Shown here one piece after another: positions 23,661-25,361 of a DNA stretch of 64,000 nucleotides. The number at the start of each line of letters is the position of its first letter. The stretch's first letter is position 1. The notes beneath the pieces were generated by a model that was not told where the DNA came from, did no database searches, and saw nothing but the letters and a program-made list of their open reading frames with translations. Both the position numbers and the translations under genes were made by a program. Location: assembly GCF_003334305.1 (NCBI RefSeq), contig NZ_QOWS01000026.1; one strand, given 5' to 3'. Origin of the DNA: Escherichia coli (GTDB lineage: Bacteria > Pseudomonadota > Gammaproteobacteria > Enterobacterales > Enterobacteriaceae).

Positions 23661-23679
23661 TTTTTTATTTTTGCGAGGC
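23661..23679 (-). promoter_or_regulatory. Recurrent 19-bp motif copy A (sigma-54-like -24/-12 geometry on minus strand), upstream of yiiF
   Basis: Plus strand TTGCGAGGCGTTTTCCAGA; minus strand TCTGGAAAACGCCTCGCAA with GG and GC spaced as in TGGCAC-N5-TTGCA. Confidence 0.35.
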
Positions 23680-23778
23680 GTTTTCCAGATACGATGTAAC
23701 AGTTGCAGTTATTATAAGTTCAAGTAAAACAGCCTTGTATTAATACCAGAATAAGGGCATCTGTTTTTTTATATTCAA

Positions 23779-23800
23779 GAATGAAAAATTTTTTTCATTC
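23779..23800. other. AT-rich perfect palindrome overlapping the stop codon of yiiE
   Basis: GAATGAAAAA tt TTTTTCATTC (10-bp arms). Confidence 0.5.
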
Positions 23801-24013
23801 CTTATGCTCCTTACACTGATCATCAACACCAACTGTCTCACCCCTTTGCCTGCCTCTCTTTGCTTTACGCACCGGAAATTGCTGCCGCTCCAGATATTGC
23901 TCAACCGCTTCGCGTAAAATTGCAGATCGTGAAACCTTACGCCAGCCCCGAAGCTTGTTCAGCCGTTTAATTGCCTCTTCTGATAAATGAAGAAAAACCG
24001 TATTCATCGCCAT
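23795..24013 (-). CDS. yiiE: CopG/ribbon-helix-helix family small protein (paralog of the preceding gene)
   Basis: 72 aa MAMNTVFLHLSEEAIKRLNKLRGWRKVSRSAILREAVEQYL; start supported by AAGGTGG Shine-Dalgarno 6 nt upstream; ORF track extends to 24040. Confidence 0.7.
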   Translation of the reverse strand: MAMNTVFLHLSEEAIKRLNKLRGWRKVSRSAILREAVEQYLERQQFPVRKAKRGRQRGETVGVDDQCKEHKE

Positions 24014-24109
24014 TACCACCACCTTACATATATTACTCATTAATGTATGTGCGAAAATTACGCCGGAAAATCATTTAAAAAAAGCGGATTTTTGCATGTT
24101 GTTTTGTTT

Positions 24110-24128
24110 TTGCGAGGTGTTTTCCAGA
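24110..24128 (-). promoter_or_regulatory. Recurrent 19-bp motif copy B, upstream of yiiE
   Basis: Plus strand TTGCGAGGTGTTTTCCAGA followed about 15 nt later by GTTGCAGTT, as in copy A. Confidence 0.35.
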
Positions 24129-24617
24129 AATAATAAGAGTGTTGCAGTTGTTTCATTTATTACTCAAAAATGGTTTAGTTATCGCCCAGGATGAGTTATG
24201 GATGCTATGAATATATTATATTCAGGGATGTTTATTTTTTGATTGGATCTTTATTTGCATAATCTGAATGGTGTACCCGAAAAATGTCAGCATCCTAACA
24301 GCACCCGGATTTAAGGTGAAATTAATCATCCATCACAGACCGGTCAGTACTGCCACCAACCGGTCTTTACTTGTTCATCGTTATAATTTTGTTGGTAACA
24401 GTTCGGGAAACAAGGAATTCCTTCCGGAACCCCCCGGTATCATCCGATAGCATTGACGTCAATCATCAGCGCGACGATGAGTTTTTTTAATCGCATCATA
24501 GGGTGGCGACGTTCAGCACGATTACGGGTCATAGCAAAACTCCTGGGCAGGCGACCACTATGCCGCTTTCACAGGAGTTCTGAATGCTAGTGCTTTCTGT
24601 ATGGCATAACCATGCCT

Positions 24618-24908
24618 CTAACGGTTAAGTGCTTGCAGCACATGTTGCGGATCATTGGCAATCGCTCGCAGCAAAGCCTTTGCAGGCCCGGTCGGTGAAC
24701 GTCGCCCCTGCTCCCAGTTACGCAACGTGTCTACGCTTACAGAAATAAGATCGGCAAATTTAGATTGTGACAACCCTGAAGCGCGGCGTATTTCTTTGAT
24801 TTTCATAGCATCAACTTCAAAAGTCCGCGAAGGCTGTCGCGTTCCTTCAATAATTTCATTCATCTGGGCCATGCTGTGAGTCAACCGCTCAAAAAGTGCC
24901 TTATCCAT
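24618..24908 (-). CDS. XRE-family HTH antitoxin-like protein (HigA-type)
   Basis: 96 aa; HTH with hallmark LRNWEQGRRSPTGPAKALLR segment typical of HigA-2-type antidotes; start codon directly abuts stop of upstream toxin gene. Confidence 0.8.
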   Translation of the reverse strand: MDKALFERLTHSMAQMNEIIEGTRQPSRTFEVDAMKIKEIRRASGLSQSKFADLISVSVDTLRNWEQGRRSPTGPAKALLRAIANDPQHVLQALNR

Positions 24909-25220
24909 TTACCACCTCGTATTTAACAACCGGAGCATTGCTTTTTCCTGGGGAGACAGATCATCTTTAATACCCTTACGATAAATAAGCAGTAATCTGA
25001 TCTCATAATGTTTAACCTGATGAAAGTAAATAACCCTGACACCAGCACGTTTCCCCTTTCCTCCTGAAACCCATCGAACCTTTCTTAACCCACCAGTTTC
25101 AGGTATTACCTCACCATAGTCAGGATTCAAGGCCAGGAAAAACTGAAAACGACTGAATTCATCGTCGGTCAGCAGTTTTTGAACATCTTCAGTAAAAATT
25201 TCCGTTTCGATGAAGAGCAT
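24909..25220 (-). CDS. RelE/ParE-superfamily toxin-like protein (HigB-type)
   Basis: 103 aa; conserved GGLRKVRW..GKGKRAGVRVIYF core typical of HigB-2/Gp49-like toxins; located upstream of its HTH partner (toxin-first order). Confidence 0.75.
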   Translation of the reverse strand: MLFIETEIFTEDVQKLLTDDEFSRFQFFLALNPDYGEVIPETGGLRKVRWVSGGKGKRAGVRVIYFHQVKHYEIRLLLIYRKGIKDDLSPQEKAMLRLLNTRW

Positions 25221-25342
25221 AATTATACGCCATTGGCTTAGAGTAACAATCCTTTTTGTACGTCATTGACGTACCCTTGAAACCACTAGCTTACTGATAG
25301 TGCTCCAGCAAAACCACGTCTCTGCCGGGTTTGTCTTTAGAT

Positions 25343-25361
25343 TTGCGAGGCGCTTTCCAGA
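25343..25361 (-). promoter_or_regulatory. Recurrent 19-bp motif copy C, about 125 bp upstream of the HigB-like gene
   Basis: Plus strand TTGCGAGGCGCTTTCCAGA; lies between the divergent toxin and esterase genes. Confidence 0.35.

What the first reader, a model, noticed from the sequence alone, without database searches (positions are those of the whole stretch)
23661..25361. Three copies of a 19-bp motif with sigma-54-like -24/-12 geometry upstream of yiiF, yiiE and the HigB-like operon
TTGCGAGGCGTTTTCCAGA (23661-23679), TTGCGAGGTGTTTTCCAGA (24110-24128) and TTGCGAGGCGCTTTCCAGA (25343-25361) differ by one base each and all lie 95-125 bp upstream of minus-strand genes. Read on the minus strand the core is TCTGGAAA-RCRCC-TCGCAA, with GG and GC spaced as in the sigma-54 consensus TGGCAC-N5-TTGCA; the bona fide glnAp2 in this same window uses TCGCT at -12. 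This may mark a shared RpoN-dependent promoter or a common regulator-binding site linking the two ribbon-helix-helix genes and the toxin-antitoxin operon. Alternatively the copies are relics of local duplication. Copies A and B also share a downstream GTTGCAGTT box.
Basis: seen in the sequence. Interest (0 to 1): 0.6.

Follow-up and report, generated by a model that had tools for sequence, protein, structure and literature searches.

The report
Sxy-dependent CRP sites, not sigma-54 promoters

Summary
The motif is real.

The sigma-54 reading fails. A matrix built from 50 sites bound in vivo scores the copies 3.7-5.2 bits against a median of 14.7. They rank 196th to 344th in the window, while the known fdoI and glnAp2 sites rank 1st and 3rd. 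The published sigma-54 ChIP-seq tables list no site at yiiE or yiiF.

Read on the plus strand, the motif is TGCGA-GGCGYT-TTCCA. This equals the published E. coli CRP-S consensus TGCGA-N6-TTCCA. It matches the validated sxy promoter site at 18 of 22 positions. Further copies lie by yicR/radC, by yhcG, and upstream of unrelated toxin-antitoxin modules in other Enterobacteriaceae.

The genes served here are YiiF (an orphan VapB-type antitoxin), its paralogue YiiE, and a HigBA-2-type operon. That operon resembles hicAB: a distal CRP-S site, plus a consensus sigma-70 promoter abutting the toxin start codon.

This is a new member of a known kind. Sxy dependence is inferred from sequence, not shown.

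The parts
23669..23690 (-). CRP-S site A (22-mer; plus strand TTTTGCGAGGCGTTTTCCAGAT), centre 103.5 nt upstream of the yiiF ATG, with the TGCGA half nearest the gene
   Evidence: 10/10 match to the core TGCGA-N6-TTCCA. Identical in all six E. coli locus variants examined.
24108..24129 (-). CRP-S site B (TTTTGCGAGGTGTTTTCCAGAA), centre 105.5 nt upstream of the annotated yiiE ATG
   Evidence: 10/10 core match. Its spacer varies among strains (GGCG, GGTG, GACG), and the weak half is destroyed in one variant, L004.
25341..25362 (-). CRP-S site C (ATTTGCGAGGCGCTTTCCAGAT), centre 131.5 nt upstream of the toxin ATG and 97.5 nt upstream of the divergent esterase ATG
   Evidence: 10/10 core match. 18/22 identical to the validated sxy promoter site. 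A 19/22 match precedes the homologous TA pair in Cedecea.
23334..23576 (-). yiiF: ribbon-helix-helix protein, an orphan VapB-type antitoxin
   Evidence: 81% identical to the CopG protein that sits directly upstream of vapC in strain H9. PDB matches 2k5j (YiiF) and 7by2 (CopG family regulator). Weak Pfam RHH_1 match.
23795..24013 (-). yiiE: ribbon-helix-helix paralogue of yiiF
   Evidence: 40% identical to YiiF, E = 3e-12. Annotated as a CopG family regulator.
24909..25220 (-). HigB-2-type toxin gene, first gene of the operon
   Evidence: PDB match to V. cholerae HigB-2, E = 1.5e-19. Weak Pfam RelE PF06296 match.
24618..24908 (-). HigA-2/NadS-type HTH antitoxin gene
   Evidence: NCBIfam NadS 60.7 bits against a cut-off of 60. 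PDB match to HigA-2, E = 1.8e-8.
25222..25249 (-). Sigma-70 consensus promoter TTGTTA-16-TATAAT. Its -10 element ends 2 nt before the toxin ATG, so it is a candidate antitoxin-only 'P2' promoter.
   Evidence: 10 of 12 consensus match. The geometry follows from the sequence. Function is inferred by analogy with hicAB P2.
25258..25274 (.). Palindrome GTACGTCA-T-TGACGTAC (8-bp arms) just upstream of the P2 -35 element; candidate antitoxin operator
   Evidence: Read directly from the sequence. Binding was not tested.
23702..23710 (.). GTTGCAGTT box, copy 1, 31 nt from the start of motif A
   Evidence: Part of the A/B paralogous block; absent from the other motif copies.
24141..24149 (.). GTTGCAGTT box, copy 2, 31 nt from the start of motif B
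25449..26357 (+). Alpha/beta hydrolase (hormone-sensitive-lipase-type esterase) gene, divergent from the TA operon; a possible second target of site C
   Evidence: NCBIfam LipP1-family match, E = 4e-71, below the curated cut-off; annotated as alpha/beta hydrolase. No esterase accompanies the motif-linked TA pair in Cedecea, so the TA operon is the conserved partner.

Best explanation
The three motif copies are CRP-S sites. These are non-canonical 22-bp binding sites for cAMP-CRP that activate transcription only together with the competence co-activator Sxy (TfoX). Each site has one near-canonical half-site carrying the diagnostic C6 (TGCGA), here the half nearest the gene. The other half is weak (TTCCA, which reads TGGAA with G6 on the other strand). 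When Sxy accumulates and cAMP is high, CRP and Sxy would occupy these sites and switch on three otherwise weak promoters. Those promoters serve yiiF (an orphan VapB-type antitoxin), yiiE (its paralogue) and the higBA-2-type operon. For the TA operon I infer a hicAB-like two-promoter design. A distal CRP-S promoter would transcribe toxin plus antitoxin. A proximal consensus sigma-70 promoter, flanked by a palindromic operator, would start inside the toxin's first codons and give antitoxin only. Shown here: the sequence identity to the published consensus and to the validated sxy site, the recurrence of the motif at other promoters, and its restriction to intergenic DNA of Enterobacteriaceae. 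Inferred: actual CRP/Sxy binding, Sxy-dependent induction, and the positions of the transcription start sites.
For: 1. The published E. coli CRP-S consensus is T4G5C6G7A8-N6-T15T16C17C18A19 (Sinha 2009, as quoted by Sondberg 2019, PMC6728893). All three copies match all 10 core bases. The window holds exactly these 3 matches against 0.18 expected.
2. The sxy promoter site is functionally validated. I located it in MG1655 as ATTTGCGAGGCTCTTTCCGAAA, which is 18/22 identical to copy C, spacer included, and in the same orientation. ppdD carries ATTTGCGAGGCGTT....
3. In Enterobacteriaceae, CRP-S half-sites without C6 'always have G6' (PMC1635313). The weak half here is TGGAA.
4. Further 10/10 copies lie in the yicR(radC)-dfp intergenic region, and radC is a competence-regulon gene. 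Another lies about 98 nt upstream of yhcG.
5. A scan of one genome per species returned 23 sites in Enterobacteriaceae. Of these, 21 are intergenic and 20 carry GC at the two free spacer positions. In other taxa, 75 of 98 hits lie inside long ORFs and the spacer is random.
6. The Cedecea homologue of this TA pair shares only 42% and 39% protein identity, yet keeps a 19/22 copy upstream.
7. Precedent: Sxy induces hicAB (P1 CRP-S site), higBA, chpSB and hokD in E. coli K-12, and toxTA in H. influenzae.
Against: No expression, binding or start-site data for these promoters could be retrieved, so Sxy and CRP dependence rests on sequence alone. The core promoter downstream of each site is not identifiable with confidence: candidate -10 elements are weak, and the spacing to the site centre (about -61 to -71) is a guess. 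Copy B is not strictly conserved. Its spacer varies, and one strain has lost the weak half, so yiiE may not always be under this control. A and B are paralogous, so they are not independent evidence. Site C could serve the divergent esterase instead of the TA operon, or both. Sinha 2009, the source of the consensus, could not be read directly.
Confidence: 0.8

Rival explanations
1. Sigma-54 (RpoN) -24/-12 promoters, TGGAAA-N5-TCGCA, firing about 12 nt downstream of the GC.
For: The GG and GC dinucleotides have the correct 10-nt separation. TCGC at -12 also occurs in glnAp2. The motifs are intergenic and point towards the genes.
Against: A matrix from 50 intergenic sigma-54 sites bound in vivo scores the copies 3.7, 5.2 and 4.4 bits. 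The leave-one-out range of the real sites is 4.7-20.5 with a median of 14.7. The copies rank 196th to 344th of 127,968 17-mers in the window, while the fdoI intragenic site and glnAp2 rank 1st and 3rd. The sigma-54 ChIP-seq tables, designed to detect closed complexes regardless of activator, list a site in fdoI but none at yiiE, yiiF or yhcG, and the dfp-associated site is a different sequence. Genomic SELEX for RpoN holoenzyme lists none either. The C at -23 and C at -21 of the consensus are both A here. The conserved spacer (GCGCC) is not something sigma-54 reads.
Confidence: 0.03
2. Neutral relics of local duplication: the repeats are left over from tandem duplication of a gene together with its upstream region, and have no function of their own.
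For: yiiF and yiiE are paralogues (40% identity). Their upstream regions share a 100-nt block at 71% identity in the same register.
Against: Within that block the 22-mer is 20/22 identical, while the remaining 78 nt are about 65% identical. Copy C and the yhcG, yicR-dfp, sxy and ppdD copies share only the site itself, with no flanking similarity. The site is also kept upstream of a 42%-identical TA homologue in another genus.
Confidence: 0.05
3. Operators for the locus's own DNA-binding proteins (the YiiE or YiiF ribbon-helix-helix proteins, or the HigA-2-type antitoxin), giving cross-regulation among the three units.
For: All three units encode small DNA-binding proteins that typically autoregulate.
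Against: The same 22-mer sits at sxy, ppdD, yicR-dfp and yhcG, and at RelB, CcdAB and Gp49-type TA loci that lack YiiE or YiiF. Antitoxin operators normally overlap the core promoter next to the start codon, and the TA operon already has such a palindrome at 25258-25274. The motif is not a dyad or a short direct repeat of the kind ribbon-helix-helix proteins bind.
Confidence: 0.04
4. Ends or attachment sites of mobile cassettes: the motif marks recombination boundaries of the variable fdhE-fabY region.
For: The locus is highly variable among E. coli strains. In both E. coli and Cedecea, motif copies lie on either side of the TA module.
Against: The indel that separates K-12-like strains from this window spans 24411-26420. 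Its ends do not coincide with any motif copy. The DUF6708 insertion in L004 begins about 25 nt from copy A, not at it. No flanking inverted repeats or target duplications were seen.
Confidence: 0.03

Closest known systems
[quoted passage not shown] 2019, PMC6728893)
   Same: An asymmetric 22-bp site with a TGCGA half nearest the promoter and a TTCC(A/G) half distal. It is 18/22 identical to copy C, including the GGC.CT spacer, and lies a similar distance from the start codon (136 nt versus 104-132 nt).
   Different: The sxy site reads TTCCG and the copies here read TTCCA, which is the consensus. Function of the sxy site is shown by reporter mutagenesis; the sites here are untested.
hicAB two-promoter toxin-antitoxin operon of E. 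coli K-12 (Turnbull & Gerdes 2017, as summarised in PMC6957337 and PMC11594946)
   Same: A toxin-first operon. A distal promoter carries a CRP-S motif. A proximal promoter at the toxin start would give antitoxin-only transcripts, and a candidate operator sits next to it.
   Different: The protein families are unrelated: HigB-2/HigA-2 type here, HicA/HicB there. The P2 promoter and the operator here are predictions from sequence only.
H. influenzae toxTA (HI0660/HI0659), a competence-regulated TA system (Findlay Black et al. 2020, PMC6957337)
   Same: [quoted passage not shown]
   Different: Haemophilus CRP-S sites are palindromic (TGCGA-N6-TCGCA). Direct homology between ToxT/ToxA and the window's proteins was not tested.
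Sigma-54 promoters such as glnAp2 (46725-46741 in this window)
   Same: GG and GC dinucleotides ten bases apart, and TCGC at -12.
   Different: The -24 element is TGGAAA rather than TGGCAC. The matrix score is about 10 bits lower than glnAp2. The published ChIP-seq tables list no sigma-54 site here.

Membership tests
E. coli CRP-S site (Sxy-dependent CRP site) | One half-site TGCGA, with C rather than T at position 6 | tested here: met
   All three copies carry TGCGA. Consensus from PMC6728893 and PMC1635313.
E. coli CRP-S site (Sxy-dependent CRP site) | A second, weaker half-site TTCCA six bases away, with G6 on the opposite strand and never T6 | tested here: met
   TTCCA is present at exactly N6 spacing in all three copies. 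The G6 rule is quoted.
E. coli CRP-S site (Sxy-dependent CRP site) | Close similarity to an experimentally validated site | tested here: met
   18/22 identity to the sxy promoter site located in MG1655.
E. coli CRP-S site (Sxy-dependent CRP site) | Intergenic position upstream of a gene, restricted to the clade that has Sxy | tested here: met
   Centres lie 104-132 nt from the start codons. In Enterobacteriaceae 21 of 23 sites are intergenic. In other taxa 75 of 98 hits are inside long ORFs.
E. coli CRP-S site (Sxy-dependent CRP site) | Transcription induced by Sxy and dependent on CRP and cAMP | not testable with these tools
   Sinha 2009 (PMC2725579), whose microarray tables would show this for yiiE and yiiF, is not held. 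The TA operon is absent from K-12.
E. coli CRP-S site (Sxy-dependent CRP site) | Weak but specific CRP binding in vitro | not testable with these tools
   Requires EMSA or footprinting.
Sigma-54 (-24/-12) promoter | GG and GC dinucleotides with canonical spacing | tested here: met
   CTGGAAAACGCCTCGCA aligns in register with TTGGCACAGATTTCGCT.
Sigma-54 (-24/-12) promoter | Overall match within the range of sites bound in vivo | tested here: not met
   Scores of 3.7-5.2 bits against a minimum of 4.7 and a median of 14.7 for 50 ChIP-seq sites. Window ranks 196-344.
Sigma-54 (-24/-12) promoter | Sigma-54 occupancy in vivo | tested here: not met
   The ChIP-seq site tables in the main text of PMC4591121 name neither yiiE/yiiF (b3889/b3890) nor their coordinates, although they do list the neighbouring fdoI site. 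This is evidence from the literature, not a new experiment.
Sigma-54 (-24/-12) promoter | rpoN- and enhancer-binding-protein-dependent transcription | not testable with these tools
   Needs rpoN-plus and rpoN-minus reporter or RNA data.
hicAB-type two-promoter TA operon | Toxin gene first, with a distal CRP-S promoter | tested here: met
   CRP-S site C is at 25341-25362.
hicAB-type two-promoter TA operon | A proximal antitoxin-repressed promoter whose transcript lacks the toxin start codon | tested here: inconclusive
   TTGTTA-16-TATAAT ends at 25222, 2 nt before the ATG at 25220. A palindrome lies at 25258-25274. No start-site or binding data are available.
HigBA-2-type toxin-antitoxin pair | Toxin homologous to HigB-2 and antitoxin homologous to HigA-2, in toxin-antitoxin order | tested here: met
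   E = 1.5e-19 for the toxin and 1.8e-8 for the antitoxin against V. cholerae HigB-2 and HigA-2 structures.
VapB-type (CopG/ribbon-helix-helix) antitoxin, orphaned | Orthologue of an antitoxin encoded directly upstream of a vapC toxin gene, with the toxin gene missing here | tested here: met
   81% identity to the vapC-linked protein of strain H9. In the window, the vapC position (23097-23324) does not align and holds REP-like sequence.

The most novel reading that the evidence does not exclude
The nearly invariant 22-mer TTTGCGAGGCGCTTTCCAGA, spacer included, is attached to many unrelated toxin-antitoxin cassettes across Enterobacteriaceae. These include HigBA-2, Gp49/HigB-HTH, RelB/DinJ and CcdAB modules, orphan VapB-like antitoxins, the candidate defence nuclease YhcG (PADLOC PDC-S02) and an unannotated ~150-aa family. 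This would mean that the competence regulator Sxy commands a large, mobile 'addiction and defence' sub-regulon. It would also suggest that the CRP-S element is repeatedly captured by such cassettes or travels with them, and that the conserved GC-rich spacer is read by Sxy or by DNA shape. The link would then be more than a handful of K-12 curiosities.
Probability: 0.3. Interest if true: 0.55.

Novelty: new member of a known kind. Interest (0 to 1): 0.3.

Why it matters
It replaces an attractive but wrong annotation, a new sigma-54 regulon, with a testable assignment. Two poorly understood K-12 genes (yiiE, yiiF) and a strain-variable HigBA-2-type toxin-antitoxin operon would belong to the Sxy/CRP competence regulon. 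It adds to the recurring but unexplained link between competence induction and toxin-antitoxin modules (hicAB, higBA, chpSB, hokD, toxTA). It also shows that the link extends to several TA families and genera through one almost invariant site. In practice, the 16-bp core TGCGA-N6-TTCCA is a sharp predictor: this 64-kb window holds 3 hits against 0.18 expected.

Tried and rejected
- **Start-site data.** I searched the supplements of five transcriptome papers (PMC7815308, PMC7132871, PMC4782308, PMC6131387; PMC4288677 is not held). None gave a start site for yiiE or yiiF; some files were truncated when stored.
- **Sinha et al. 2009.** This primary Sxy-regulon paper could not be opened by PMC id or DOI. 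No held paper mentions Sxy together with yiiE, yiiF or yhcG. The supplements of Cameron & Redfield 2006 and PMC3113591 are not held.
- **RNA families.** Rfam found only sub-threshold REP-derived hits at 23207-23289 and nothing at the motifs.
- **Structured RNA or terminator.** The motif has no stem followed by a T-run on either strand.
- **Plus-strand sigma-70 promoter using TTGCGA as -35.** Rejected because no -10 element is conserved among the copies (read).
- **Other sigma factors and regulators, recalled from memory** (sigma-32, sigma-E, IclR-type TGGAAA half-sites, PurR, Cra, the marbox). None fitted the whole motif, and all were dropped once the CRP-S consensus matched exactly.
- **Cassette-boundary idea.** Rejected because the indel junctions do not coincide with motif copies.
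Full report
**Observation.** The quoted 19-mers exist. TTGCGAGGTGTTTTCCAGA is at 24110-24128 and TTGCGAGGCGCTTTCCAGA at 25343-25361. Allowing up to three mismatches, these are the only matches in the 64-kb window. Shuffles give 0.03 on average, and 0 of 100 reach three.

The copies lie 95, 97 and 123 nt upstream of three minus-strand genes: yiiF (23334-23576), yiiE (annotated 23795-24013) and a 103-aa toxin gene (24909-25220). 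A 96-aa HTH antitoxin gene (24618-24908) follows the toxin gene. Copies A and B sit in a 100-nt block that is 71% identical between the yiiF and yiiE upstream regions. That block also holds the GTTGCAGTT box, 31 nt from each motif start. Copy C shares only about 27 nt with A and B.

**Genomic context.** The window is the E. coli fdoI-fdhE / yiiF-yiiE / fabY(yiiD)-dtd region, and this region varies among strains.
- K-12-like genomes carry only copies A and B, at MG1655 4079614-4079632 and 4079176-4079194.
- In those genomes, 474 bp replace window 24411-26420, the segment that holds copy C, the TA operon and an esterase gene. Neither junction coincides with a motif copy.
- Other strains carry a vapC toxin gene directly after the yiiF homologue, or DUF6708 genes between yiiF and yiiE, or transposases.
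- YiiF is 81% identical to the vapC-linked protein, so it is an orphaned VapB-type ribbon-helix-helix antitoxin. YiiE is its 40%-identical paralogue.
- The toxin and antitoxin are homologues of V. cholerae HigB-2 (E = 1.5e-19) and HigA-2 (E = 1.8e-8). The antitoxin just reaches NCBIfam's NadS cut-off.

**Testing the sigma-54 reading.** The GG...GC spacing is correct, but little else fits.
- I built a position weight matrix from the 50 intergenic sigma-54 ChIP-seq sites tabulated by Bonocora et al. 2015 (PMC4591121). The copies score 3.7, 5.2 and 4.4 bits.
- The real sites score 4.7-20.5 bits in leave-one-out tests, with a median of 14.7.
- The copies rank 344th, 196th and 272nd among the window's 127,968 17-mers.
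- The two sigma-54 sites known to lie in this window behave as expected. The fdoI intragenic site (21596-21612) ranks 1st and glnAp2 (46725-46741) ranks 3rd.
- The ChIP-seq tables of that study, which was designed to catch closed complexes whether or not an activator is present, list the fdoI site but nothing at yiiE or yiiF.
- The RpoN genomic SELEX study also lists nothing there.
- The motif's conserved spacer is not something sigma-54 reads.

I consider this interpretation refuted as far as computation and published data allow.

**What the motif is.** A search of 5,426 complete E. coli genomes with copy C found more copies outside this locus.
- One lies about 98 nt upstream of yhcG: sense strand TTCTGGAAAGCGCCTCGCATAA, in O157:H7 and BL21.
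- Another lies in the yicR(radC)-dfp intergenic region, K-12 included: TCCTGGAAAGCGCCTCGCAAAG.

radC belongs to the Haemophilus competence regulon, whose promoters carry CRP-S sites with the core TGCGA (PMC1635313). Read on the window's plus strand, the motif is TGCGA-GGCG(T/C)T-TTCCA.

Sondberg et al. 2019 (PMC6728893) give the E. coli CRP-S motif of Sinha et al. 2009 as T4G5C6G7A8-6N-T15T16C17C18A19. That means one CRP-like half-site with C6 plus a less conserved half, and function that does not depend on orientation. All three copies match all ten core bases. The core pattern occurs exactly three times in the window against 0.18 expected. Cameron & Redfield add that Enterobacteriaceae half-sites lacking C6 always have G6, and the weak half here reads TGGAA.

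I then fetched known Sxy-dependent promoters from MG1655.
- The sxy promoter carries ATTTGCGAGGCTCTTTCCGAAA. This has the TGCGA and TTCCG halves described for the reporter-validated site. It is 18/22 identical to copy C, in the same orientation, 136 nt from the start codon.
- ppdD carries ATTTGCGAGGCGTT....
- sbmC carries a palindromic TGCGA-N6-TCGCA site.

Aligned, the sites read TTCTGGAAAgCGCCTCGCAAAt.

**Comparative support.** A scan of one genome per species for TTGCGAGGCNNTTTCCAG stopped at its 120-locus limit.
- Twenty-two loci, holding 23 sites, are from Enterobacteriaceae: Escherichia, Enterobacter, Leclercia, Lelliottia, Cedecea, Kosakonia, Phytobacter, Pluralibacter and Silvania.
- In that family, 21 of 23 sites are intergenic and 20 of 23 have GC at the two free positions.
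- In all other taxa, 75 of 98 hits lie inside ORFs of at least 150 aa and the free positions are random, as chance hits would be.

The genes facing the Enterobacteriaceae sites include:
- yicR/dfp;
- a RelB/DinJ antitoxin;
- a CcdAB pair;
- three Gp49/HigB-like toxins; two of them (L072, L136) are followed by an HTH-type gene, and only the L072 partner matched HTH antitoxin models in the family search;
- a PTS EIICB gene in three species;
- an unannotated ~150-aa family in six species.

In Cedecea, a homologue of this window's TA pair (42% and 39% protein identity) is preceded by a 19/22 copy of the site. This argues that selection, not shared descent of the DNA, maintains it.

**Mechanism (inferred).** When cAMP is high and Sxy accumulates, CRP-Sxy would bind the three sites and activate otherwise weak promoters for yiiF, yiiE and the TA operon.

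For the TA operon the sequence suggests the hicAB design described by Turnbull & Gerdes (summarised). A distal CRP-S promoter would give toxin plus antitoxin mRNA. A near-consensus sigma-70 promoter (TTGTTA-16-TATAAT, 25249-25222) has a -10 element that ends 2 nt before the toxin ATG. Its transcripts should therefore start inside the toxin's first codons and encode only antitoxin. A perfect 8-bp-arm palindrome (25258-25274) just upstream of its -35 element is the likely antitoxin operator.

Sxy-induced TA expression has precedent: hicAB, higBA, chpSB and hokD in K-12, and toxTA in H. influenzae.

**Limits.** No start-site, expression or binding data for these promoters could be retrieved. Sinha 2009 is not held. 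I therefore cannot say whether yiiE and yiiF are already listed as Sxy-regulon members. Because they are perfect consensus matches in K-12, I think it more likely than not that they are. Copy C and its operon are absent from K-12, so K-12 studies cannot have covered them. Copy B is less constrained than copy A: its spacer varies, and one strain has lost the weak half. Site C might also serve the divergent esterase gene, although the Cedecea comparison points to the TA operon as the conserved partner.

**Verdict.** The sigma-54 interpretation is wrong. The alternative 'common regulator site' is right, and the regulator is CRP with Sxy. The sites are new or newly recognised members of a known class. 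The broader association of this near-invariant site with diverse TA and defence cassettes is the one aspect worth following up.

Noticed in passing
window 21596-21612 (+): CTGGCGCGAATTCTGCA inside fdoI is the top-scoring sigma-54 match in the window. It corresponds to the intragenic ChIP-seq site IS47 of Bonocora et al. 2015.
   Followed up: partly
window 48290-48306 (+), 40102-40118 (+), 53463-53479 (+), 26242-26258 (-): Other strong sigma-54 matrix matches (13.8-17.8 bits), for example CTGGCGTAATTGTTGCA at 48290. I did not check whether they are known ChIP-seq sites or which genes they sit in.
   Followed up: no
window 23097-23324: REP/BIME-like sequence (sub-threshold Rfam hits to naRNA4 and ES036 at 23207-23289) fills the position where strain H9 carries the vapC toxin gene downstream of the yiiF homologue. 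So yiiF appears to have lost its toxin partner at this spot.
   Followed up: partly
L008 3001-3029 (E. coli O157:H7) and L007 (BL21): A perfect CRP-S core lies about 98 nt upstream of yhcG. YhcG is a PDDEXK/DUF1016 nuclease that matches the PADLOC candidate defence gene PDC-S02 (E = 4e-136). This suggests a defence-type nuclease under competence control.
   Followed up: partly
L046 1003-1452, L072 4772-5209, L127 3793-4242, L119 1924-2379, L053 4301-4828, L026 9902-10417: A family of about 145-175 aa (MNTENNFAQLYSELSL...LAERC.LLTEILLDC...) has the motif 170-300 nt upstream of its start in six Enterobacteriaceae species. Three members were searched against NCBIfam and one each against Pfam and PADLOC, with no match. 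The family was recognised by eye and was not aligned. In two loci it sits next to a motif-linked TA pair.
   Followed up: partly
L022, L115, L116 (Enterobacter sp. Bisph1, Kosakonia spp.): The same 18-mer lies about 150-180 nt upstream of a glucose/maltose-type PTS EIICB gene in three species. This is a non-TA, carbon-source-related target.
   Followed up: no
window 26373-26405: A perfect 15-nt inverted repeat (CTGAAAAGGTTTTCA / TGAAAACCTTTTCAG, 3-nt loop) lies between the convergent esterase and fabY genes. It is probably a bidirectional terminator.
   Followed up: no
fdhE-fabY interval in L001-L005 and hits H3, H7: This interval is a hotspot of strain variation. The variants carry vapC, two DUF6708-type genes, transposases, or IS621/IS110 and IS3 insertions.
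   Followed up: partly
L016 (MG1655 higB upstream) and L015 (hicA upstream): The best CRP-S-like sites at the two K-12 TA operons reported as Sxy-induced are TTCTGGAATCGCGCTTCCATAA (higBA) and TTCTGGAATCTTCCTTCCTGAT (hicAB). Both have two TGGAA/TTCC-type halves and no TGCGA half, so they differ from the sites in this window. I did not confirm that these are the sites defined in the literature.
   Followed up: no
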